NCBI GenBank assembly: GCA_035292445.1
Contig: DATDQB010000008.1
Coordinates: 40,033 to 104,032, forward strand
From: Candidatus Omnitrophota bacterium
GTDB lineage: Bacteria; Omnitrophota; Gorgyraeia; Zapsychrales; Zapsychraceae
Direction of reading: 5' to 3'
Length of the DNA stretch: 64,000 nucleotides
Every line of letters begins with the position of its first letter. Position 1 is the first letter of the stretch. Made by a program: the position numbers and the translations under genes. Positions 293 through 14,849 of this stretch are shown piece by piece. The notes beneath the pieces are model-generated. The model saw nothing but the letters and a program-made list of their open reading frames with translations. It made no database searches and was not told the origin of the DNA.

Positions 293-305
293 TCTGTGCT
301 ATACT
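293..305 (+). promoter_or_regulatory. extended -10 promoter element (TGcTATACT) upstream of the small ORF at 332
   Basis: The motif gtgctatact occurs at 296-305 and again, identical, at 11744-11753 upstream of another gene. It has the extended -10 form TGnTATACT. Confidence 0.3.
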
Positions 306-331
306 GTAAGCAATATAACTCAGGAGACCTT

Positions 332-574
332 ATGGATTTAAATGGCTCAACAGTTTCGCAAATTCAAAGAAGATGGAATAAATACCAGGCTTATGCGTTG
401 AGAGAGAAAAAAGCATATCTCAAAAAGTTATCTTTCAGCCAGGGCCTTCGCATCTTCAGCGACCTCCATTCTTTTACCCGCATTTCCTCGTGCGAACAAC
501 CCCCGATGTTTCATATCAATAAACGTAACACCCTAATCCGTATTCACCGGATGTTTTCAAGAATAAAATTGTGA
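332..574 (+). CDS. small basic hypothetical protein (80 aa); possible cognate partner of the downstream nucleotidyltransferase
   Basis: ATG at 332 is preceded by AGGAGA (322-327). Its stop overlaps the GTG start of the next gene (GTGA, 571-574). It is K/R-rich. A C-terminal RNTLIRIH fits Rx6H, but only weakly, so a HEPN-like assignment is unproven. Confidence 0.35.
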   Translation: MDLNGSTVSQIQRRWNKYQAYALREKKAYLKKLSFSQGLRIFSDLHSFTRISSCEQPPMFHINKRNTLIRIHRMFSRIKL

Positions 575-1143
575 ACAGCTTAAATCAACAATTACGGCAG
601 TTGGTTGAGTTCCTGTCTAATGAAAGAATTAAATATGTCGTTCTTGGCGGTGTGGCTGTTTCTGTGTATGGAGAGCCGCGGCTGACAGCGGATATCGATG
701 TTAACGTTCTTTTACCTAAAGACAAAATCTTTGATTTTATCAAGAAGGCAAAAAAATACGGGTTTTATTCTTTATTCCCGGGTATGCGAAAAATGGCCCA
801 AAGGGCGGGTGTTATTTCATTCGGCTTTAAAAAAGGAAAGATATCAGGTAAATTTGATATGATTATTGCGGAAAATATCCTTGAATATAATGCCATTGAG
901 CGGGGGAAAATAAAGAAAATCGAAGGGACCTCTTTAAGGTTAATCACGCCGGAAGATCTCATTATTCACAAGATAGCCAGTTCGCGCCCCCGGGATTTGG
1001 AGGATTTGAAAGGGGTCCTTTTACGCCAAAAAGGAAAATTAGACAATAAGTATATCCAGTTTTGGTTAAAAAAACTTGATCGGGCAAACCCTGGAGCCAG
1101 GCTCCACCCTCTTTTTAATCAAATACGGAAGGGATGTGCGTAG
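571..1143 (+). CDS. nucleotidyltransferase-fold protein, AbiEii/MNT-like; candidate toxin-antitoxin or abortive-infection component
   Basis: N-terminal YVVLGGVAVSVYGEPRLTADIDVNV is a GS…D.D polymerase-β-like NTase motif. C-terminal IIHKIASSRPRDLEDLKGVL carries the RxRDxxDL motif typical of AbiEii/DUF1814-type NTases. Confidence 0.55.
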   Translation: MNSLNQQLRQLVEFLSNERIKYVVLGGVAVSVYGEPRLTADIDVNVLLPKDKIFDFIKKAKKYGFYSLFPGMRKMAQRAGVISFGFKKGKISGKFDMIIAENILEYNAIERGKIKKIEGTSLRLITPEDLIIHKIASSRPRDLEDLKGVLLRQKGKLDNKYIQFWLKKLDRANPGARLHPLFNQIRKGCA

Positions 1144-4367: not shown

Positions 4368-4572
4368 ACTCCCGTCGGGCGGCTTTTCAGCCAAAAATCT
4401 TCTCAAAAAATCCCAAATTCCCGTTGCGCCTGCCGTTTTCCCTTCCTATAATTTAATTACATTAATATAAATATTCTTACTGCTACTAACTCTGAGAATA
4501 CTTAAAAGACAAATTCTTCTTACTTGTATTCTTGGCGCGCTTAGCCTAACCTGGGCGCACGCCGAAGGGGAG

Positions 4573-7500
4573 TTGTCGCCCCCGCAGCCGCCACCTACCG
4601 AATCCCTTCTGATCGTTCAGGATGACAAGCCCATTTTAAGTCCTCCCGTTTACCCGTCCATTCTTGTATTTCAGGTGCCCTCAACAAAAAAAATCAGCGT
4701 TCTTCAACCCATTGGAACAGTGCCGCTAATGAGCGGACAAAATTTCATGAAGCACTATTCAGGGGCTATTTTTTTAAACACAGCCGATACTATTCAAGCG
4801 CAGGAAATGCTTGAGAATCTACCGGATGTCCAGGTGCCCCAGGAATCTCAGAAACCTACTAGCGTGCTTGTGCGGCGTTCTTCCGGACAGAGTTCTTCAG
4901 CACCGGAAGGGGAAAGCGAGGAGTCCCAGCTTGTTGTTTTATCCGATAAAGCTATTCTTGTTTCCAATGAGCCTTCCGCAGAAGATCAGTTGGCGTTGGC
5001 CAGCGAAGATTTAGACGGCAGCGTTCTTGTTCATGCCTTTGAAAAAGACAATTACTCATTAGAAAAAGATGTCCTGAATTTATCCAAAGTAAAGGCTGTT
5101 TTGGTTACCGATAGTTTGATGATCGATGAAAAAGAGATCGTTCCTGAAGTTTCTTTGACCGATGCCCAGGATGACGCCAAGGATAAGCCAGCGGGATCAG
5201 CGCCAACGGAGGTGACAACGGAAGGGACCGTCTCCATAGAATCTGAAGAAATCGTTTACAAAGCCCCGGAATCAGTTTCCTTGATCCGTAATTTGCGCAT
5301 TATCGATCCGGATGATTATGCCAGTGATCCGCTGACGATGGCCAATATCGATGAGCACATCAGCCTGGTCAGTCAAAATGTCCAGTTGGTTCCAAGTACC
5401 GTGGTAACAGCGGAAGGAACACAACAGGCCGAGGCGCCCGTTGAGGAAAAATACTACAGCTATGTCCCGGGACGGTTTATCGTCCAATTCAAAAGCGACT
5501 GGCCGCACGCACTGGAAAGATGTGCCCAGAAGATATTCACCACCGGAGAGTCTTTCCAGGATTATCTTTCTGACGGCTCTTCTTCCATCGACCAATTAAA
5601 CAAGATTTGCCAGGTAAGAAAAGTCAAAGGGTTGTTCGTCAGGCGGGGGAAGTTGTCCACGCAGGAAGCGCAGACGATGCAGGATGAGAAGGTCAGGGTC
5701 ATCAAGAAGAGATTCGCCAAACGTGCGTTAAGGGCCAAGAGGGATGGACAGAAGGCTCCCGAGCTTTTTAACACGTATATTTTTGAGGTGCCGCCGGGCA
5801 GTGACATTAAGAAGATGTGCCAGTTGTATGAGGCTGACCCGCACGTGGCCTTTGCCCAGCCAGATTATCTGGTGTTCTCAACCGTGTTCCCGGCCACGGC
5901 GCCGGATGACCCTTTGTATGAACCTTTGATGTGGGCGCTGAACAATACGGGCCAGACAGGAGGGGCAACCGATGCCGATATCGACGCCCCGCAGGCCTGG
6001 CTTTTGAATTTGGGAGACAACATCATTGTGGCGGTCAATGATACGGGTGTTGATTATGAACATGCGGACTTGGCAGATAACATCTGGATAAATCCAATAG
6101 AAGACATAAATAGTAATGGGGTGGTGGATGGGACAGATACCTGCCCGACAATTAACGGCGACTTTAATTGCCTCGATGATGACGGCAACGGTTATGTTGA
6201 CGATATTCGAGGCTATGATTTCGCCAATCTGGATACGGATCCTATGGATACGTATGGCCACGGAACAATGGTGGCCGGGATTATCGGGGCTGTTACGGAT
6301 AATGATGAAGGTATTGCGGGTGTTGCACCGAATGTGAAGATCATGGCCCTGAAGGGTTTTCCCGATGGAGAGAATGTATTAGGCTCTACGTCAGACTTGG
6401 CGGAAGCTATTGTTTACGCAGCCATGAACGGTGCTGATGTCATTAATAACAGTTGGGGATGTTTTCCGCCGAGCTGCCCTTCAAATCCGGTTGCTGAGGC
6501 AGCGGTCAACACAGCCTATGGTTTAGGTGCTGTTGTGGTGTTTGGCGCTGGCAACGACGATTTGGATATCAACGATATAAGCCCGCAGAATATGCAGCCT
6601 GAAACGATTGCCGTGGCAGCGACCGACCACGATGATGTAAGGGCCATTTTTTCCAACACGGGGACACTGATCGATCTGGCAGCTCCCGGCGTGGATGTCG
6701 TCTCAACGTGGCCGCTGAACAATTATGCGTTAGCTGACGGGACATCGTTTGCCGCGCCTCATGTGGCGGGTGTGGCAGCATTGATCATCTCCGAGTACCC
6801 GAGCTATACCAATGACCAGGTCCGGATTATCCTGCGCGATTCAACCGATGATATCGATGCCGCAGGGTTCGACAGCAATACGGGGATGGGGCGGTTAAAT
6901 GCGCAGAAAGCGCTGGCGCTGACAAACGTTTCGCCGTTTTTGAACCCTGTTGGGAACAAGACGGCCAATACAGGCATTCTTTTGCAATTTGACGTGACGG
7001 CTTTTGATCCCAGAAGTGACCCCGTGACGCTTTCGGCGCAACTTTCCGGAGGCGCTGCTTTGGGCACCATCGGCGCGACTTTTGTCGATAATGGAAACGG
7101 GTCGGGGACCTTTTCCTGGACGGCGAATGTCGGCCAGGGTGGATTGGACCCGTCGGTTGAATTCACTGTCACGGACTCTCCGGGAGGTTTTACGGATTCA
7201 GAAACCATTACGATTACGGTCAATCTCACCGGGGCTACTTGCGGCAATAACATCCTTGAGCCGCCCGAGGAATGTGATGACAACAATCTGGTCAACGGTG
7301 ACGGATGCTCGGCCTCCTGCACGATCGAATTGTGCGGTGACGGTGATGTTGATTTCGGTGAAGAATGCGATGACGGCAATCTCATTGACGGCGACGGTTG
7401 CGACGGCATTTGTGACATTGAATTCTGCGGGGACGGAGCGATCAATAACGGCGGCGGTGAAGAATGTGACGATGGGAATTTTAACAGCGGAGATGGTTGT

Positions 7501-8103
7501 TCCAGTACTTGTTTGGATGAAATTTGCGGCAATAGTCGCGTCGATTTCGGCGAAGGATGTGATGATGGCAATTTAGTTGCCGGGGATGGCTGCGATGGCA
7601 GTTGCCAGATCGAGCCGGATTGCGGCAACGGGGCCGTTGAAGCGGGCGAGGAATGCGATGACGGCAATCTGGTTGACGGGGACGGCTGTGACGAGCAATG
7701 TGTCGATGAGCTTTGCAGCGATGGGATCGTCAATGACGGCGGTATCGAAGAATGCGATGACGGCGATCTGGATGACGGGGACGGCTGCTCTTCCGTTTGT
7801 TTGTTGGAAGTCTGCGGGAACGGGATTACGGATCTCGCTGTCGGCGAAGAGTGTGACGATGGCAACGTGAGCGATGGGGACGGGTGCTCATCGGATTGTT
7901 TCTTAGAAACTTGCGGGAACAGCCGTACGGATTTCAGCGAAGAATGCGATGACGGCAATGCCGTTGAGTTGGACGGATGCTCTTCAACATGCCAGATCGT
8001 CGGCGTTTGCGGTAACGGAGTCTGCGAAGTGGACGGCGAGGAAACGTGCGTCAACTGCCAAGCCGATTGCGGTTATTGCCGGGGGCTGCGCCCCAGGGAT
8101 TAA
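4573..8103 (+). CDS. secreted subtilisin-like serine protease (peptidase S8) with an I9 propeptide and a C-terminal array of Myxococcus-type cysteine-rich repeats
   Basis: The catalytic triad is present in context: Asp in NDTGVDYEHADL, His in DTYGHGTMVAG, Ser in DGTSFAAPHVAG. The propeptide covers ~res 295-440 (FIVQFKSD…HVAFAQPDYL). After res ~890 there are about 10 repeats of the form CGNGxxExGEECDDGNxxxGDGCSxxC (TIGR02232-like). The true start is uncertain. Confidence 0.85.
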   Translation: MSPPQPPPTESLLIVQDDKPILSPPVYPSILVFQVPSTKKISVLQPIGTVPLMSGQNFMKHYSGAIFLNTADTIQAQEMLENLPDVQVPQESQKPTSVLVRRSSGQSSSAPEGESEESQLVVLSDKAILVSNEPSAEDQLALASEDLDGSVLVHAFEKDNYSLEKDVLNLSKVKAVLVTDSLMIDEKEIVPEVSLTDAQDDAKDKPAGSAPTEVTTEGTVSIESEEIVYKAPESVSLIRNLRIIDPDDYASDPLTMANIDEHISLVSQNVQLVPSTVVTAEGTQQAEAPVEEKYYSYVPGRFIVQFKSDWPHALERCAQKIFTTGESFQDYLSDGSSSIDQLNKICQVRKVKGLFVRRGKLSTQEAQTMQDEKVRVIKKRFAKRALRAKRDGQKAPELFNTYIFEVPPGSDIKKMCQLYEADPHVAFAQPDYLVFSTVFPATAPDDPLYEPLMWALNNTGQTGGATDADIDAPQAWLLNLGDNIIVAVNDTGVDYEHADLADNIWINPIEDINSNGVVDGTDTCPTINGDFNCLDDDGNGYVDDIRGYDFANLDTDPMDTYGHGTMVAGIIGAVTDNDEGIAGVAPNVKIMALKGFPDGENVLGSTSDLAEAIVYAAMNGADVINNSWGCFPPSCPSNPVAEAAVNTAYGLGAVVVFGAGNDDLDINDISPQNMQPETIAVAATDHDDVRAIFSNTGTLIDLAAPGVDVVSTWPLNNYALADGTSFAAPHVAGVAALIISEYPSYTNDQVRIILRDSTDDIDAAGFDSNTGMGRLNAQKALALTNVSPFLNPVGNKTANTGILLQFDVTAFDPRSDPVTLSAQLSGGAALGTIGATFVDNGNGSGTFSWTANVGQGGLDPSVEFTVTDSPGGFTDSETITITVNLTGATCGNNILEPPEECDDNNLVNGDGCSASCTIELCGDGDVDFGEECDDGNLIDGDGCDGICDIEFCGDGAINNGGGEECDDGNFNSGDGCSSTCLDEICGNSRVDFGEGCDDGNLVAGDGCDGSCQIEPDCGNGAVEAGEECDDGNLVDGDGCDEQCVDELCSDGIVNDGGIEECDDGDLDDGDGCSSVCLLEVCGNGITDLAVGEECDDGNVSDGDGCSSDCFLETCGNSRTDFSEECDDGNAVELDGCSSTCQIVGVCGNGVCEVDGEETCVNCQADCGYCRGLRPRD
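7237..8040 (+). repeat. about 10 tandem ~111-bp coding repeats, one per cysteine-rich module
   Basis: gaatgcgatgacggcaat…gacggctgctc recurs with high nucleotide identity. The repeats also generate a spurious 416-aa P/S-rich antisense ORF at 6804-8054. Confidence 0.7.
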
Positions 8104-8105
8104 AA

Positions 8106-8555
8106 ATGTCAAAAAGACGAAACGGTAAATATCTTTTTGTCCTGGTCTTGGCGATGATGGTCAGTGCCGTTTCCTGCCTGGCCCCCAGCGCCGAAAAAGG
8201 ACTACCCGAACAATCATCAAACACCCGGATAACTGTCCAATTTGAGGATAATATTTCAGATGCTGTGCTGGAAGAGGAGATAGAATTCATAAAAAGCACC
8301 TATGCCATCAAAGAGATCTCAAGGCCTTTTGAGGCGGCTCAGACGGTCGATGAGGTAAAAAGAAAATTCCCGGAAAGGACAAGCCGTATTCCGGTGGGCG
8401 TTGAGCCTCCTGACATTTCACGGATGTTCGTCATCGAGTTCACGCAGCAACAAAAAAACATTGACCGGGTTTGTGAGGAATTGACGCAAAGGCCAACGAT
8501 CAAATACGCGCAACCTGAAATTTTAGCAACTTCCGATCAAGTGAGTGATGAATAA
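8106..8555 (+). CDS. secreted or lipoprotein paralog of the protease propeptide (peptidase-inhibitor I9-like)
   Basis: The signal peptide is KYLFVLVLAMMVSAVSC. FVIEFTQQQKNIDRVCEELTQRPTIKYAQPEIL aligns to the protease's own propeptide YIFEVPPGSDIKKMCQLYEADPHVAFAQPDYL. RITVQFEDNISDAV aligns to RFIVQFKSDWPHAL. Confidence 0.5.
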   Translation: MSKRRNGKYLFVLVLAMMVSAVSCLAPSAEKGLPEQSSNTRITVQFEDNISDAVLEEEIEFIKSTYAIKEISRPFEAAQTVDEVKRKFPERTSRIPVGVEPPDISRMFVIEFTQQQKNIDRVCEELTQRPTIKYAQPEILATSDQVSDE

Positions 8556-9879
8556 TAAATTACTCAAATCGTGCGTTCCAGGGTTTGCTTTTGTAGCGAT
8601 CCATTTGGTTTTGGCGCAATCGGCCGGGGCGCTTGACCGGCGTTCGGCCGCCGTTACAAAGGAATTGGATTGCGTGGCAGAAGCGTTTCAGGATGGCGCT
8701 GAGCTGACGTGGGCCGATGTGTGTTCCACAAATCCCAGAAAGGCACAGCAGGATGCCGTCACCCAAGAGTTGGATGCCTATGAAATCGAATATGAGTACG
8801 GCCGACAGAACCAGTATGAATCCTCTGTTGAATACCTACAGCATTTTATGAAAACAGCCCAAGACCGCCCGGTAGCTTATGAGGACAATGGGGGTGCGCC
8901 TTACGCGCAACCCATCCGGCGCAACGAGAGAATTTCCTCACCGGCGCTTGATCGTAAATATACGCAAGAACAGTACCGCGACTCAGGAAAGTTTATTAAA
9001 GCCAACATCGACATCAGGTCAGGCTATCGCTTCGATAATCTGGATTGGAGCATCGCCGGTAATTTGCAGGGGGCAAACCCCAATGTCTTTGCTGAATATT
9101 TTTTTGAAGACATCGAGGCCGCGCAGATCAAAGCCAAAGCGAATATCATTTTGGCCAACCGGCTGGTTTTTGATGGTTACGCGGCGTACGCGGAAATTTT
9201 GGACGGGGACAGCGAGGTTTCCGAATACGATGGCAATAACAGGACCGATCTGGCGATCAGGGACGAAAGCGACACCAACGAAGATAAATTGCTGGATTTC
9301 TCCGGCGCGCTGGGCTGGCGTTTTAAGATCGATGAAAACGATGTTTTAAGCGAGTTTTTTTCGCTGAACCAACTGTATTTGACATTTTTACTCGGGTATT
9401 CGCGCCATGAACAGCAGTTGAGTTTAACGGACGGCGTTACGGTGATCGATAACACCGCCACCCCCGACTTAGGGGCTTACGATGGATTGGACAGTAGTTA
9501 TGACGCCGAATGGAAAGGCCCTTGGGCTGGATTAGAGCTTTTCGGCCGAAAAGATAGAATCATGGGATTGTTTCGGGTAGAATATCATTTGGCGGATTAT
9601 TACGGCTGGGGGCAGCTGAACTTGCAGCCGAGCTTCCAGCAACCCAAAAGTTTTGAGCATACGACGGAAGGCAACGGCTGGATCTTTAATTTGGATCTGG
9701 GTTATCAATTGACCGAGAACTTTAGTCTTGATTTTGCGGGGGACCTTCAGCTGTGGAACGCCAAAGAAGGCGTTGATCGGCTATTTCTGATTGATGGGAG
9801 CGTTGATGAGCGCCAGTTGAATGAAGTCAACTGGGAATCGTATGCCTTAATGTTGGGAGCCACGCTACGGTTTCATTGA
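8545..9879 (+). CDS. putative outer-membrane β-barrel protein (secreted, D/Y/G-rich)
   Basis: It has an N-terminal signal peptide (FAFVAIHLVLAQSAGA). Amphipathic alternating segments occur, e.g. LGYQLTENFSLDFAGDLQLW. The C-terminus is …GATLRFH. No specific family is recognised. Confidence 0.3.
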   Translation: MMNNKLLKSCVPGFAFVAIHLVLAQSAGALDRRSAAVTKELDCVAEAFQDGAELTWADVCSTNPRKAQQDAVTQELDAYEIEYEYGRQNQYESSVEYLQHFMKTAQDRPVAYEDNGGAPYAQPIRRNERISSPALDRKYTQEQYRDSGKFIKANIDIRSGYRFDNLDWSIAGNLQGANPNVFAEYFFEDIEAAQIKAKANIILANRLVFDGYAAYAEILDGDSEVSEYDGNNRTDLAIRDESDTNEDKLLDFSGALGWRFKIDENDVLSEFFSLNQLYLTFLLGYSRHEQQLSLTDGVTVIDNTATPDLGAYDGLDSSYDAEWKGPWAGLELFGRKDRIMGLFRVEYHLADYYGWGQLNLQPSFQQPKSFEHTTEGNGWIFNLDLGYQLTENFSLDFAGDLQLWNAKEGVDRLFLIDGSVDERQLNEVNWESYALMLGATLRFH

Positions 9880-10006
9880 AATAGCCGCAACATGGTGCGG
9901 TAAGAGGGAAGGGTTGACAAATGTCGTTTAGATGTTGTATCCTTAAAACAGAGAAGTTTATTAGTAAAAAGCCTGTAAGCAAAGCCTGTTATACAAAAAT
10001 CATTGG

Positions 10007-10045
10007 CCACGGATCGTTGTTTGATAAAGTCCGTGGTTTTTTATT
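10007..10045 (+). terminator. rho-independent terminator downstream of the 8545-9879 gene
   Basis: ccacgga pairs with tccgtgg across a loop of N16, and is followed by ttttttatt. Confidence 0.5.
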
Positions 10046-10062
10046 GTCCTAAAGGAGACTTT

Positions 10063-11259
10063 ATGGCCGATGAAACCTTCACGGATTTTACGCAGCCTTT
10101 AAAAGTACTGGTCGTTGAAGACAGCAACATCGACCGGCGCATCTTGGAGTCGATGCTCCAGGAAAAGGAAGAATACAGCGCGCTTCTTAAGGTCGCTGAT
10201 TCGTTGGCGAAAACGCTTCAGCTCTTTGACGAATTTGAGTTTGATGTGGTTATCCTTGATCTGAATTTGCCCGATAGCCAGGGTGAAGAAACGCTCTTCA
10301 AACTGACGGCAAAGAATCCTAAAATTGCCGTGGTTGTCAATACGGGAGCCTACGAAGACCGGGTGGGCTTAAAGACGTTAAGCATGGGCGCCCAGGATTT
10401 TCTCGTTAAAGGTAAATACACGGCGTATCTGTTGAACAAGGTCCTTCATTACGCCGTTGAGCGCAAACGTTTCGAGCTCAAGCTCAAGGATGCCTACGAA
10501 AAACTGAAAGAAACGCAATCGCAGCTGATCCATGCCGAGAAAATGAAGGTGATCGGCGCTTTGGCGAGCGGGGTCGCCCACGAGGTCAAGAATCCCTTGG
10601 CGACCATCCTTTACGGGATCACGTACCTGTCGGAGGTACTGGACCCAAAAGATGAGAAGCTTCAAACGGTATTGCGCAATATCAAAGACGCCAGCGGCCG
10701 GGCGGATAGGATCATCACGGATTTGTTGGATTTTGCCCGGTTAAGGCAGTTGAAAAAGGAAAAACAAAATATCAACGATGCCATTGAAAAAACACTGGGA
10801 CTGATCAAGCACGAATTGGACCGAAAGCACATTCAAATGGAAAAACGATTAAGCAAAGATCTTGCGGCCGTGGAAATCGATGCCAATAAAATCGAGCAGG
10901 TATTGGTCAACTTGATGCTCAATGCGATTAATGCGATGGAACGTGATGGGCGCTTAACGGTGACCAGTGCTGCGGTTGAACTTTCAGAGGATTTGCACGA
11001 AATCCCCGACCTTCACCGCCGGCACTTTAAGCCCAACGATAGGGTCGTTCGCGTGACAGTGGAGGACACCGGAGGCGGCATACCGGCCGGTGAATTGGAT
11101 AAAATTTTTGAGCCTTTTTTCACCACCAGGCGCGCCGAAGGCGGCCTGGGTCTGGGGCTGTCGGTTTCCAGGAACATCATGGAAATTCACGAAGGGAGCA
11201 TCTCTATTGAAAATAAGAAAGAAGGGGGTGCGCAAGCAGTGCTGCATTTCAAAATTTGA
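10063..11259 (+). CDS. cytoplasmic hybrid histidine kinase (REC-HisKA-HATPase_c) with no sensor or transmembrane domain
   Basis: The RBS AAGGAGA precedes ATG 10063. The REC domain has VVILDLNLPD. The HisKA domain has GVAHEVKNPLATI. The HATPase domain has GGGIPAGELDKIFEPFFTTR…GLGLGLS. Confidence 0.8.
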   Translation: MADETFTDFTQPLKVLVVEDSNIDRRILESMLQEKEEYSALLKVADSLAKTLQLFDEFEFDVVILDLNLPDSQGEETLFKLTAKNPKIAVVVNTGAYEDRVGLKTLSMGAQDFLVKGKYTAYLLNKVLHYAVERKRFELKLKDAYEKLKETQSQLIHAEKMKVIGALASGVAHEVKNPLATILYGITYLSEVLDPKDEKLQTVLRNIKDASGRADRIITDLLDFARLRQLKKEKQNINDAIEKTLGLIKHELDRKHIQMEKRLSKDLAAVEIDANKIEQVLVNLMLNAINAMERDGRLTVTSAAVELSEDLHEIPDLHRRHFKPNDRVVRVTVEDTGGGIPAGELDKIFEPFFTTRRAEGGLGLGLSVSRNIMEIHEGSISIENKKEGGAQAVLHFKI

Positions 11260-11280
11260 CACCGGGAGGTAAGTTGCTTT

Positions 11281-11667
11281 ATGGAAGAAAAAAAGAAAAT
11301 ACTTATCATCGATGACGAAAAAGGCTTCACTTCCATGTTGCAATTGAATTTAGAGTCCATAGGAGAATATGAAGTGAGGGTTGAAAACCGGGCTGAGAAG
11401 GCCCTAGAGATCGCTTTGCAGTTCCAGCCCGATATTATTCTTCTTGATGTCATCATGCCAAATGTGGAAGGGCCGGACGTGGCCAACATCATTCACACCA
11501 ATGAGGGGTTAAAGGACATCCCTATTATTTTTCTTACGGCCACCGTTACCAAAGATGAGGTGGATGCCCAGAACGGGAAGATCGGCGGGCATACTTTTGT
11601 CGCCAAGCCGAGCAGCCTGTCCGATTTGACCACTTCCATCAAAAGAAACCTGTTACCCGCGTTTTAG
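11281..11667 (+). CDS. single-domain response regulator (CheY-like REC)
   Basis: KILIIDDEKGF…IILLDVIMPNVEGPDV…IIFLTA is a REC domain. Confidence 0.8.
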   Translation: MEEKKKILIIDDEKGFTSMLQLNLESIGEYEVRVENRAEKALEIALQFQPDIILLDVIMPNVEGPDVANIIHTNEGLKDIPIIFLTATVTKDEVDAQNGKIGGHTFVAKPSSLSDLTTSIKRNLLPAF

Positions 11668-11743
11668 AAGTATTTTTAGCTTTTATTTCTGCCCCCAAGC
11701 CAAAGATCACCAACTTGATAAATGTTTTATTATTCCCGCCGTA

Positions 11744-11753
11744 GTGCTATACT
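11744..11753 (+). promoter_or_regulatory. extended -10 element TGcTATACT
   Basis: The 10-mer gtgctatact is identical to the one at 296-305. Confidence 0.3.
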
Positions 11754-11779
11754 CATCCCATAATCATTGACGGCCAATC

Positions 11780-13334
11780 ATGGGAAAAATCAATAATCAG
11801 GTAGTTTTATTATTTTGCGCGTTTTTCTTCTTGCCGGGTTTAAGTTCGGCCGCGGATATCGACCCTGCCATCATCCGGACTTTTCTTGAACAAAGCAAGG
11901 CGCTGTTGCAACAAGGGCAGGCCAACGAAGCGGCGGATCGTTTGGGCCGGGCGTTTCTCCTGGACCCGCAAAACAAGGACGTGCGCGAGCGCCTGCTTGA
12001 GGTGAGCAACCATCCTTCGTTGAGGGCAGAGCAAAAGCTGCAATTGAATTTATTCAACGGATTGTTGGGCTTTCTCAATAATTTGGAAGAAAAGAGAAGC
12101 TATTTTGAGCAAAAGAGAAAAGACTTACTCCAGCAGCTGGTGCGCGAAGGCACCGATGAAGGGTATCTGACGCTGGAGATGCGCTTGATCGAAGATGCCG
12201 CGCAAAAGGAGCTTTCCTTAAAAGAGGCGCAATGGCAAAAGTGGTTCCTGGAGAAAAAAGACCCCTTGGGGATGATCAACGCTTCTTTGCAACGCTCCCG
12301 TCAGGAGCTTTTGGCCCAAACGCAGACGCTTCAGGAGCAATTCACCCGCCTTAAAGAAATCAACAAAGAGCGATCCGCACAGCAGGCGCAAACGGCAAGA
12401 ATAGACGAAAAAGATGCTTACCCTCCCTTAAAGCAGACGCAGTTTGTCAGCGCTCAGGAACCAGCCTTGGACCAGACGATCCAGGCGAAGATGGCCGCGT
12501 TGTCCAAGCAGGTTGTCGACCTTTCGCTGAAACTGGAAGAGGCTAGAAACGTGGCTCTTAAAAGCTCAGAACAGATCGGATTCTTGAAGGAGCAGATAGA
12601 CGGCTTTAAGTCAAGGCATGATCTAAGCGAACGGATCATTGATGAGAAGAATCAGGAAATGGTGTTGATGAACCAGCAAATCGCGGATCTGCAGGCGCAG
12701 TTGAAATTAAGGGAACATTTTGTCCAGGAGAAAGACGACGATTTGACACATATGCAGCAAAAGAGCTCCGATGAAACACAGGGTCTTGTGAAAGAAAACC
12801 AGGAGCTTAAACAGCTGGTCAGGGCACAAAGAACTGAGATCCGCCAATTAGACGCCATGCTGGAAGTTTACCAGGAACGATCGGCGTTTTTTGCGCAACC
12901 AACGGCCAGTGTCACAACGGACCAGATCGAGGAATACAAAGGGATCATTGAGATTTATCAGTGGTTTTTAAAAGAAGCGCGCGACGGAGCCCTGGCGGCA
13001 AACAAGGAGTTCGATCATTTAGAAAAGGACCTCGAGCAGATAAAGGAGCAACTCACGCTTAAAAGCCAATTGCTTTTGGACACGGAGTATAAGTTGATGA
13101 CCATCAAACGGGACCTGACGGATGTTCAGGCGCAATTTGCCGTTGTAAAAAATCTGCCGGAAGCGCAGGAACACGCCCAACTCGAAGCCCATATGGACAG
13201 CTTGGAGGAAAAACTGCAAAGTATCCATAAATTTCTATTGCAACAGCTAAGCGATTTTGAGAAACTAAATAGCCATAAAATGGCGGGGGAGCTTAAAGAC
13301 ATCGACCGGGTTTTAAAGCTTAATATGGAGCGCA

Positions 13335-13348
<14 letters not shown>
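11780..13348 (+). CDS. secreted long coiled-coil protein
   Basis: The signal peptide is VVLLFCAFFFLPGLSSA. Beyond it the protein is Q/E/K/L-rich heptad sequence for more than 400 aa. Confidence 0.45.

Positions 13349-14849
<1,501 letters not shown>

What the first reader, a model, noticed from the sequence alone, without database searches (positions are those of the whole stretch)
4573..9879. Giant Cys-repeat subtilase followed by a free-standing paralog of its own propeptide and an outer-membrane-like protein
The 149-aa secreted protein at 8106-8555 is not a random neighbour. Its segments RITVQFEDNISDAV… and …FVIEFTQQQKNIDRVCEELTQRPTIKYAQPEIL align residue by residue to the I9 propeptide inside the protease (RFIVQFKSDWPHAL… and …YIFEVPPGSDIKKMCQLYEADPHVAFAQPDYL). 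The locus therefore encodes an S8 protease with ~10 TIGR02232-type cysteine-rich modules and, separately, a stand-alone copy of its inhibitory and chaperoning propeptide. This is the PBI2/POIA1-type arrangement known in fungi and rarely annotated in bacteria. A predicted outer-membrane β-barrel-like protein follows (8545-9879, overlapping by 11 nt). The trio looks like a self-contained module of secreted protease, trans-acting propeptide-like inhibitor and outer-membrane component. Its organisation is not, to my knowledge, a described system.
Basis: partly seen in the sequence, partly recalled or inferred. Interest (0 to 1): 0.55.

Follow-up and report, generated by a model that had tools for sequence, protein, structure and literature searches.

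The report
Subtilase operon with free-standing prodomain lipoprotein
An uncultivated Omnitrophota bacterium encodes, in one tight operon, a large secreted subtilisin-type protease, a small lipoprotein that is a free-standing copy of the protease's inhibitory prodomain, and an outer-membrane barrel protein; this is probably a built-in safety catch, a bacterial version of inhibitors so far studied in eukaryotes.

Summary
ORF 4573-8103 is an S8 subtilase with its own complete prodomain, an intact Asp/His/Ser triad and 8 (+1 degenerate) DUF4215/TIGR02232 cysteine repeats. ORF 8106-8555 is a 149-aa lipobox-bearing protein. ORF 8548-9879 is a Pom-family (PF17251) outer-membrane barrel.

The small protein has no Pfam hit of its own. 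However, a profile built only from 70 protease-attached prodomains finds exactly two of 795 window ORFs: the protease prodomain (2e-40) and the small protein (1.2e-14).

The small protein belongs to an undescribed family of about 25 free-standing, secreted or lipid-anchored prodomain proteins; 18 of 25 hit PF22148. It is not a recent copy of its neighbour's prodomain (21% identity).

The trio recurs in one other lineage with DNA in hand. A second lineage shows the same gene geometry, but no DNA was available. A third has protease plus Pom without the small gene. All Pom-linked proteases share a C-terminal CxCRG..RPR tail.

Eighty other Pom loci have no protease neighbour.

Most likely the small protein is a trans-acting prodomain-mimic inhibitor that protects the envelope. 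This is inferred, not shown.

Closest precedents are POIA1/PBI2/SPI-1/SUB1-ProM, Tannerella potempins and Aeromonas ORF2. I rate it a new variant of a known kind, of moderate interest.

The parts
4471..4572 (+). In-frame extension upstream of the first canonical start codon. It encodes a signal-peptide-like segment (…KRQILLTCILGALSLTWAHA|EGE). The probable true N-terminus uses a non-canonical start (CTG 4480/4492 or ATA 4498).
   Evidence: Read from the sequence. The stop-to-stop ORF begins at 4471. The sequence is identical in five independent assemblies. The start codon itself is inferred.
4573..8103 (+). S8 subtilase pre-pro-enzyme (1176 aa from TTG 4573; gene callers start at 4729 or 4747).
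5461..5880 (+). The protease's own (cis) prodomain, residues 297-436, complete.
   Evidence: Profile of S8-attached prodomains, E 2e-40 over profile positions 2-136. PF22148 at 399-431.
6013..6891 (+). S8 catalytic domain. Asp490 (6040-6042), His563 (6259-6261), oxyanion Asn in the NNSWG motif (6445-6459), Ser725 (6745-6747).
   Evidence: Pfam PF00082, E 4.7e-53. Motifs NDTGVD, HGTMVAG, NNSWG and GTSFAAPH located.
6928..7227 (+). Linker domain of about 100 aa, probably Ig-like.
   Evidence: No Pfham hit in the window protein. The orthologue P0002 carries Big_9 at the same place. Inferred.
7237..8007 (+). Eight DUF4215/TIGR02232 cysteine-rich acidic repeats.
8008..8100 (+). C-terminal Cys cap and basic tail (…CQADCGYCRGLRPRD), shared only by the Pom-linked proteases.
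8106..8555 (+). Free-standing prodomain-like protein, 149 aa. An AGGGA Shine-Dalgarno-like element lies 6-10 nt upstream. A 2-nt gap separates it from the protease stop codon.
   Evidence: Family membership.
8106..8177 (+). Lipoprotein-type signal peptide MSKRRNGKYLFVLVLAMMVSAVS|C24 (lipobox AVSC).
   Evidence: Matches a PROSITE-style lipobox pattern, as do 9 of 25 family members. Gene callers' start at M17 (8154) would remove it.
8220..8534 (+). Prodomain fold (beta-alpha-beta, helical insert, beta-alpha-beta) plus the C-terminal tail ILATSD. The tail aligns with the active-site-binding P-side tail of subtilisin prodomains.
   Evidence: AF2 model with pLDDT 84.4. Profile hit E 1.2e-14. hhalign to the BPN' prodomain, residues 53-75.
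8548..9879 (+). Pom-family outer-membrane beta-barrel protein (443 aa from ATG 8548; alternative GTG 8545). Overlaps the small gene by 8-11 nt. It has a signal peptide, an N-terminal region of about 125 aa with a conserved Cys pair, and a barrel at 9013-9876.
   Evidence: PF17251, E 5.8e-47. Alignments. NCBI record HLF17792.1, Candidatus Omnitrophota.

Best explanation
This is a three-gene operon of a Candidatus Omnitrophota bacterium.

Gene 1 encodes a Sec-exported subtilase zymogen. Its own N-terminal prodomain folds the catalytic domain, is cut off and then degraded, as in other subtilases.

Gene 2 encodes a lipid-anchored, free-standing homologue of that prodomain. It probably binds mature protease molecules as the cleaved prodomain does: the beta-sheet packs on the two surface helices of the catalytic domain and the C-terminal tail (…ILATSD…) lies in the substrate cleft. 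It would then act as a tight, possibly temporary, trans-inhibitor. Made in step with the protease (2-nt gap), it would keep the enzyme silent in the periplasm or at the outer membrane and protect the producer's envelope until the enzyme is released.

Gene 3 is translationally coupled through an 8-nt overlap and encodes a Pom-type outer-membrane barrel. It is the conserved envelope partner of this protease clade. It may be a docking site for the conserved C-terminal CxCRG..RPR tail, or the channel that takes up the peptides the protease releases.

Shown here: the homologies, the export and lipobox signals, the operon packing, and conservation of the module.

Inferred: inhibition, cellular location, and any role of Pom.
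For: Homology of the small protein to S8 prodomains:
- Library-wide phmmer hits include prodomains of S8 peptidases.
- 18 of 25 family members hit PF22148.
- The independent prodomain profile gives E 1.2e-14 and hits only the two expected ORFs among 795.
- The tail and helix-capping positions align with the BPN' prodomain.

The protease does not need a foldase: it keeps a complete cis prodomain (2e-40) and an intact triad.

Export and anchoring: signal peptide plus lipobox Cys24. Nine of 25 family members have a lipobox and most of the others have signal peptides.

Operon packing.

Conservation of the module:
- L061/L062 trio.
- P0037 contig with a 4-nt gap, a 131-aa gene, an 11-nt overlap and a gene of at least 407 aa.
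- L006 protease plus Pom.
- L064 free-standing prodomain gene abutting an S8 gene whose prodomain is the nearest relative of the window's.
- The C-terminal tail is shared by all Pom-linked proteases and by none of the other listed homologues.

Precedents: stand-alone prodomain mimics are potent inhibitors (PMC6993865). Co-transcribed outer-membrane lipoprotein inhibitors protect the producer's outer membrane (PMC9890683).
Against:
- The small protein is very divergent from the adjacent prodomain (21% identity), so specificity for the neighbour is assumed from adjacency only.
- One close relative (L006) has protease plus Pom without the small gene, so the inhibitor is dispensable in that lineage.
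- Three of about seven family contexts show no adjacent protease.
- Fold searches cannot separate the prodomain fold from other ferredoxin-like folds; FtsX ECD and ribosomal protein S6 score higher.
- The role of Pom is pure inference. PomS is a general diffusion porin (PMC3561449), and 80 other Pom loci are unlinked to proteases.
Confidence: 0.5

Rival explanations
1. Trans-acting foldase or escort. The small protein is an external chaperone, like Aeromonas ORF2. It would stabilise or refold the protease in the periplasm and accompany it to the secretion step, rather than serving mainly as an inhibitor.
For: - It is encoded immediately downstream of the S8 gene, as ORF2 is (reference list of PMC5638518; details from my own knowledge of Kobayashi et al. 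2015).
- Prodomains are chaperones as well as inhibitors.
- Relatives are associated with type II secretion genes, whose substrates fold in the periplasm: L059 has a free-standing prodomain gene at the head of a T2SS operon, and L147 has a related protease just after T2SS pseudopilin genes.
Against: - The protease has a complete prodomain of its own, unlike propeptide-deficient ASP.
- A profile search of the PDB, which I believe holds the ORF2-ASP complex, returned no ORF2 chain at E up to 1.
- A lipid anchor fits a stationary guard better than an escort.
Confidence: 0.2
2. Shield against foreign subtilases. The lipoprotein inhibits proteases of prey, hosts or competitors rather than the neighbour. 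Its adjacency to the protease gene would then be a by-product of its origin from a protease gene.
For: - It is highly divergent from the adjacent prodomain.
- Some family members have no adjacent protease.
- PotA of Tannerella also inhibits a host protease (PMC9890683).
Against: - The tight translational arrangement and the same position between protease and Pom recur in independent lineages.
- Stand-alone prodomain mimics studied so far are selective for cognate enzymes (PMC6993865).
Confidence: 0.1
3. No joint function. The small ORF is a decaying remnant of a duplicated protease gene, and Pom is an ordinary porin that happens to lie downstream.
For: - Most Pom genes are not next to proteases.
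- One relative lacks the small gene.
- A few apparent free-standing hits are truncated proteases (L056, P0155).
Against: - The family has its own signal peptides or lipoboxes and consistent C-termini 5-15 residues after the domain, in about 25 diverged clusters.
- Protease-Pom adjacency is conserved with a shared C-terminal tail in four lineages.
- The genes overlap or abut.
Confidence: 0.08

Closest known systems
Stand-alone subtilisin propeptide-like inhibitors of MEROPS family I9: POIA1, yeast PBI2, Arabidopsis SPI-1, Toxoplasma MIC5, Plasmodium SUB1-ProM (PMC6993865)
   Same: A small independent gene product with the prodomain fold. SUB1-ProM is also encoded next to subtilase genes. The C-terminal tail and helix-capping positions are laid out as in prodomains.
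   Different: - All characterised examples are eukaryotic.
- Those were described as lacking significant sequence similarity to prodomains, whereas this one is demonstrably homologous to a bacterial prodomain family (PF22148 type).
- It has no Inhibitor_I9 Pfam hit.
- It is lipobox-anchored.
- It sits in an operon between the protease and an outer-membrane barrel.
KLIKK-peptidase/potempin system of Tannerella forsythia (PMC9890683)
   Same: Small lipoprotein inhibitors (98-132 aa) co-transcribed with secreted peptidases, including a subtilase. They are anchored at the outer membrane and protect the producer's envelope. This is the same operon logic as proposed here.
   Different: - Potempins are OB-fold or eight-stranded beta-barrels, not prodomain mimics.
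- Their genes lie upstream of the peptidase.
- There is no dedicated outer-membrane barrel partner.
- They occur in Bacteroidota and use type IX secretion.
Aeromonas sobria serine protease (ASP) and its external chaperone ORF2 (references 16 and 17 in PMC5638518; details from my own knowledge)
   Same: A bacterial S8 gene followed directly by a small gene whose product has a prodomain-like structure and binds the protease in the periplasm.
   Different: - ASP lacks its own propeptide and needs ORF2 to fold. The protease here has a full cis prodomain.
- No PDB chain, ORF2 included, matched the family profile at E up to 1.
Fervidolysin-type subtilases (PF22148 prodomain + PF00082 catalytic domain)
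   Same: The protease and many of its homologues have this prodomain-catalytic layout.
   Different: This protease has an N-terminal extension of about 300 aa, eight DUF4215 repeats and a conserved C-terminal tail. Its prodomain type also exists as a separate gene.
PomS/PomT porins of Protochlamydia (PF17251; PMC3561449)
   Same: The third gene is a full-length Pom-family member (E 5.8e-47).
   Different: - PomS is an abundant general porin of a chlamydial symbiont.
- This clade is from Omnitrophota-like bacteria and has an extra N-terminal Cys-pair region.
- It has many invariant polar residues.
- It is operon-linked to a protease.

Membership tests
Peptidase S8 (subtilase) | Significant match to the PF00082 model above its gathering score | tested here: met
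   E 4.7e-53, 180.8 bits against a cut-off of 21.8.
Peptidase S8 (subtilase) | Asp-His-Ser catalytic triad in that order, plus the oxyanion Asn | tested here: met
   Asp490 (NDTGVD), His563 (HGTMVAG), Asn in the NNSWG motif (residues 625-629), Ser725 (GTSFAAPH).
TIGR02232 / DUF4215 cysteine-rich acidic repeat | Repeated matches to the model above its cut-off | tested here: met
   TIGR02232 E 2.6e-65 in 8 stretches; PF13948 E 6.9e-31 in 8 stretches.
Inhibitor_I9 (PF05922 / MEROPS I9) | Significant sequence match of the small protein to the I9 model or to a canonical I9 member | tested here: inconclusive
   No Pfam hit at E up to 1. hhalign of the family profile to the subtilisin BPN' prodomain, typed in from memory, gives only a 23-column local match with probability 44%.
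Inhibitor_I9 (PF05922 / MEROPS I9) | [quoted passage not shown] | tested here: met
Inhibitor_I9 (PF05922 / MEROPS I9) | Inhibits a subtilase | not testable with these tools
   Needs enzyme kinetics.
Fervidolysin_NPro-like prodomain (PF22148) | Match to the family model | tested here: inconclusive
   The small protein itself has no hit. Eighteen of the 25 members of its family do (best 1.3e-14). A home-made profile of 70 S8-attached prodomains of this type hits it at 1.2e-14. Membership therefore rests on transitive and profile evidence, not on the curated model.
Bacterial lipoprotein | N-terminal basic region, hydrophobic core, and lipobox ending in Cys at position 15-35 | tested here: met
   K3 R4 R5, then the hydrophobic core, then A-V-S-C24. 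It matches the PROSITE-style pattern, which I wrote from memory. Actual lipidation was not tested.
Pom porin family (PF17251) | Match above the gathering score over the whole model | tested here: met
   E 5.8e-47, 160.8 bits against a cut-off of 22.4, profile positions 2-280 of 285.
Pom porin family (PF17251) | Forms a general diffusion pore | not testable with these tools
   Shown only for PomS (PMC3561449). The single-sequence AF2 model failed (pLDDT 30.5).
External chaperone of propeptide-deficient subtilase (ASP/ORF2 type) | The cognate protease lacks its own prodomain | tested here: not met
   The cis prodomain is complete (E 2e-40).
External chaperone of propeptide-deficient subtilase (ASP/ORF2 type) | Sequence similarity to ORF2 | tested here: not met
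   A profile search of all PDB chains found no ORF2 chain at E up to 1. That the PDB holds the ORF2-ASP complex is from my own memory, not checked here.
Conserved protease / prodomain-mimic / Pom module (proposed here) | The same three genes in the same order in other organisms | tested here: met
   L061/L062. P0037 contig by gene geometry only, with no DNA. L006 lacks the middle gene. None of the 80 other Pom loci has it.

The most novel reading that the evidence does not exclude
The conserved unit is a new envelope-docked protease system of predatory or epibiotic Omnitrophota. In this reading the Pom-type barrel, with its invariant His/Ser/Asp/Arg residues, is not a plain porin. It would be the dedicated outer-membrane receptor or export partner, recognising the conserved C-terminal CxCRG..RPR tail of the Cys-repeat subtilase. 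The lipoprotein prodomain mimic would be the latch that holds the surface-parked enzyme inactive until it is released, for instance on contact with prey.
Probability: 0.12. Interest if true: 0.7.

Novelty: new variant of a known kind. Interest (0 to 1): 0.45.

Why it matters
Stand-alone prodomain mimics are an established way of controlling subtilases, but every characterised case listed in PMC6993865 is eukaryotic. Some have been read as convergent evolution.

Here a bacterial family is demonstrably homologous to real prodomains. It carries its own export or lipid-anchor signals and, in one clade, sits in an operon between the protease and an outer-membrane barrel. That provides a clear evolutionary route, from prodomain to separate gene. 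It also provides a testable self-protection mechanism for the heavily protease-armed, uncultivated Omnitrophota, and a candidate source of specific subtilase inhibitors.

The link between the Pom barrel and a conserved protease C-terminal tail hints at an undescribed envelope partnership.

The finding is nonetheless incremental. The fold, the inhibitory principle and the protease-plus-inhibitor operon logic are all known.

Tried and rejected
- **Word-seeded homologue search with the small protein:** found only itself. The exhaustive HMMER search was needed.
- **The narrower alignment against GTDB species genomes:** returned 49 loci, essentially all prodomains fused to S8. No usable free-standing case and no Pom neighbour.
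- **Profile search of the PDB by sequence:** nothing significant for either the small family or Pom.
- **Pom structure:** The single-sequence model failed at pLDDT 30.5. The afdb50 fold library was unavailable.
- **Idea that the 135-aa ORF upstream of the L006 protease is a relocated small gene:** rejected. It has no similarity. It is probably the protease's own N-terminus split off by frameshifts in a 2x-coverage contig.
- **Idea that the 601-aa gene after the P0004 protease is a Pom analogue:** rejected.
- **Idea that the free-standing proteins form one clade, or that the window's copy is a recent duplicate of its neighbour:** not supported by the NJ tree and distances. The tree is weak at this divergence.
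- **Hits P0123 and P0128:** these are repeat or low-complexity artefacts.
- **Rfam:** found nothing in the window.


Full report
**1. What is in the sequence**

Three same-strand ORFs fill 4573-9879.

ORF 1 (4573-8103, 1176 aa from the first TTG) is an S8 subtilase:
- Peptidase_S8 at residues 481-773, E 4.7e-53.
- A fervidolysin-type prodomain signature at 399-431.
- Eight DUF4215 stretches, which are eight TIGR02232 repeats, E 2.6e-65.
- An intact catalytic triad and oxyanion Asn: Asp490, His563, Asn in NNSWG, Ser725.
- By eye, eight canonical repeats followed by a degenerate Cys cap and a basic tail, …CQADCGYCRGLRPRD.

ORF 2 starts 2 nt after the protease stop codon, at ATG 8106, with an AGGGA element 6-10 nt upstream. 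It encodes 149 aa beginning MSKRRNGKYLFVLVLAMMVSAVS|C24. That is a signal peptide ending in a lipobox. Public gene calls start at M17 and so miss the signal.

ORF 3 overlaps ORF 2 by 8 nt (ATG 8548) or 11 nt (GTG 8545). It is a full-length Pom-family outer-membrane barrel, PF17251, E 5.8e-47.

A sigma-70-like promoter match precedes the next gene, at 9914-9943. The three genes therefore look like one operon.

The flanks are ordinary chromosome:
- TPR, GIY-YIG, HIT and DUF4440 genes upstream.
- A hybrid histidine kinase, a response regulator and an HtrA-like protease downstream.
- Sulfate assimilation, an ABC transporter and citrate synthase further on.

The Pom protein is NCBI HLF17792.1 from a Candidatus Omnitrophota MAG. 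Five independent assemblies carry the same sequence with zero or one difference across the three genes, so this is not an assembly artefact.

**2. Is the small protein really a prodomain homologue?**

Taken alone, the evidence is thin:
- It has no Pfam or NCBIfam hit.
- BLASTP against the protease gives 21% identity over 112 columns, pairwise E 9e-5, although at exactly the right place (small 46-143 against protease 328-436, just before the catalytic domain).

Three further tests settle the question.

(a) An exhaustive phmmer search of 1.84 billion representative proteins gave 37 hits below 1e-3. About two thirds are small proteins of 127-214 aa. Most of the long hits are S8 peptidases matched precisely in their prodomain, immediately N-terminal to PF22148 and PF00082.

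(b) In an alignment of the 25 small proteins (A1), 18 hit PF22148 (best 1.3e-14) and 9 hit Peptidase_S8_N.

(c) I built a profile from 70 prodomains that are attached to S8 catalytic domains, with no window sequence and no free-standing protein in it. I searched all 795 window ORFs of at least 40 aa. Only two hits came back: the protease's own prodomain (2e-40) and the small protein (1.2e-14). The reciprocal profile, built from the free-standing proteins, hits the protease prodomain at 1e-21.

An hhalign of A1 against the subtilisin BPN' prodomain, typed in from memory, gives a local match with probability 44%. It lines up …EELTQRPTIKYAQPEILAT with …KELKKDPSVAYVEEDHVAH. This places Q136 and E138 at the helix-capping positions and ILATSD where the P-side tail enters the active site (capping residues as described in PMC6993865).

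**3.

- The prodomain type is PF22148, not Pfam Inhibitor_I9.
- There are 8 (+1) repeats, not about 10.
- The small protein is not a recent copy of its own protease's prodomain. Its distance to that prodomain (0.86) is larger than to its nearest neighbours of either kind (0.71-0.74). The window protease did not appear among the phmmer hits below 1e-3.
- The free-standing proteins do not form a single clade in a (weak) NJ tree.

**4. The free-standing family**

- Members share the prodomain core and the motif KFPERxKRIPxGAxxP…VEYAQPNYxATIQ.
- They end 5-15 residues after the point where, in fused enzymes, the PNDP…W.L.NTGQ start of the mature protease follows. The consistent ends argue against random truncation.
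- Two apparent members (L056, P0155) do run on into protease sequence and are fragments.
- Nine of 25 have a strict lipobox. Most others have ordinary signal peptides.
- The family is extracytoplasmic and keeps the tail that, in prodomains, occupies the substrate cleft.

**5. Is the trio conserved?**

Contexts of free-standing members:

| Locus | Arrangement |
|---|---|
| L061/L062 (two samples) | C-terminal 438 aa of a protein with 9-11 DUF4215 repeats ending …CSADCGPCRGLRPR; 4-nt overlap; 170-aa prodomain protein (27% identical to the window's, E 2e-18); 2-nt gap; 429-aa Pom (E 7.5e-55) |
| L064 | C-terminal Ig-type domains of an upstream protein; 4-nt overlap; free-standing prodomain; an S8 protease with its own prodomain, which is the nearest relative of the window protease's prodomain |
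| L059 | Between a sensor kinase and a type II secretion operon |
| L063, L065 | Short contigs next to unrelated genes |

Contexts of the closest proteases:

| Protease | Identity | Arrangement |
|---|---|---|
| P0037 | 62% in the catalytic part; same Ig, repeat, cap and tail architecture | 4-nt gap, 131-aa no-Pfam gene, 11-nt overlap, gene of at least 407 aa. This is the window's geometry, but the DNA could not be fetched |
| P0061 | 59% | Followed by a truncated gene |
| P0002 / L006 | 51% | Followed after 24 nt by a Pom orthologue (31% identity, E 8e-74) with no room for a small gene |
| P0003, P0004, P0005 | 44-48% | No Pom. P0005 sits just after T2SS pseudopilin genes |

Of 80 further Pom loci from metagenomes (33-44% identity), none has an S8, prodomain or Cys-repeat neighbour. 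In 49 loci from GTDB species genomes, nearly every match is a prodomain fused to an S8 domain (three are cut off or degenerate), and none is near a Pom gene.

The conserved core is therefore a Cys-repeat subtilase plus a Pom barrel in one small clade, with the prodomain-mimic gene inserted between them in the window and L061, probably also in the P0037 lineage, but not in L006.

All Pom-linked proteases end with the cap and tail DCGxCRG(L/GS)RPR. None of the other listed homologues ends this way.

**6. Mechanism**

Established subtilase biology says the cleaved prodomain stays bound as a tight inhibitor until it is degraded. Stand-alone mimics (POIA1, PBI2, AtSPI-1, TgMIC5, SUB1-ProM) are potent and often selective inhibitors (PMC6993865).

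Several features fit a trans-acting inhibitor that guards the producer's periplasm or outer membrane:
- The protease has a complete cis prodomain, so it does not need an external foldase.
- The small protein keeps the tail and capping positions.
- It is exported and probably lipid-anchored.
- It is translated next to the protease.

This is the logic demonstrated for the potempin lipoproteins of Tannerella (PMC9890683).

The association of relatives with type II secretion genes fits the same picture. It also matches published notes on Omnitrophota secretion loci (bioRxiv 10.1101/2023.11.21.568195). T2SS substrates fold in the periplasm, which creates exactly that risk.

I give this explanation about 0.5. 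The rivals are:
- An ORF2-like escort or chaperone (0.2).
- A shield against foreign subtilases (0.1).
- No joint function (below 0.1).

The role of Pom is open. PomS is a general diffusion porin (PMC3561449). This clade, however, has an added N-terminal Cys-pair region and many invariant polar residues (R161, D250, S285, H287, H347, S368, H371). It also co-varies with the protease's C-terminal tail. Docking or peptide uptake are both possible. Neither was tested.

**7. Novelty and verdict**

My literature searches found no description of a bacterial free-standing PF22148-type prodomain family, nor of a protease / prodomain-mimic / Pom operon. The library searched is limited.

The principle is known: prodomain mimic as inhibitor, and inhibitor co-transcribed with a secreted protease. 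I therefore rate this a new variant of a known kind.

- Function is inferred.
- Interest is 0.45.

Noticed in passing
window 4471-4572: A textbook signal peptide (KRQILLTCILGALSLTWAHA|EGE) lies in frame upstream of the protease's first ATG/GTG/TTG, directly after a TAA at 4468-4470. The sequence is identical in five assemblies. The gene probably starts at a non-canonical codon (CTG 4480/4492 or ATA 4498). Public gene calls, which start at 4729 or 4747, give a protease without a signal peptide.
   Followed up: partly
window 8008-8100; L061 about 1220-1316; C-termini of P0002, P0037 and P0061: Every protease that sits next to a Pom gene ends with the same Cys cap and basic tail (DCGxCRGLRPR, or CRGGSRPRPR). 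None of the other listed homologues does. This may be a sorting or docking tag.
   Followed up: partly
window 9013-9876 (Pom barrel); alignment A4: Fifty-two Pom relatives share invariant polar residues and the motifs GYSYHEQ, EYHWADY and PKSFEH (R161, D250, S285, H287, Q289, H347, S368, H371, N425). That is unusual for a general porin and reminiscent of outer-membrane enzymes. There is no PDB relative by sequence, and structure prediction failed.
   Followed up: partly
L059 10001-10540 and L147 1417-5025: A free-standing prodomain gene lies at the head of a type II secretion operon (GspE/F/G/H…secretin). A related S8 protease lies directly after T2SS pseudopilin genes. This suggests these proteases are T2SS substrates.
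   Followed up: no
L064 532-2158: A free-standing prodomain gene is wedged, with a 4-nt overlap, between the Ig-domain C-terminus of one protein and an S8 protease. That protease's prodomain is the nearest relative of the window protease's prodomain.
   Followed up: partly
window 4573-5460: The protease has an N-terminal extension of about 296 residues before the prodomain. It is acidic and Pro/Ser/Val-rich with no family hit. The closest relatives have a shorter one or none.
   Followed up: no
window 296-1143: A 92-aa ORF overlaps by 4 nt a DUF6036/AbiEii-like nucleotidyltransferase gene (571-1143). The pair looks like a toxin-antitoxin module. A DUF6036 gene also flanks the related protease locus L007.
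   Followed up: no
window 10003-14849: Directly downstream of the trio lie a hybrid histidine kinase (receiver + HisKA + HATPase), a single-domain response regulator, a 522-aa protein with no family, and an HtrA/DegP-type periplasmic protease with PDZ domains. These could be an envelope-stress or regulatory neighbourhood.
   Followed up: no
L006 (whole contig): This is a 2x-coverage contig with Cpn60 split into three ORFs and ThiC into two. Its 135-aa signal-peptide ORF upstream of the protease is probably the frameshifted N-terminus of the protease.
   Followed up: partly
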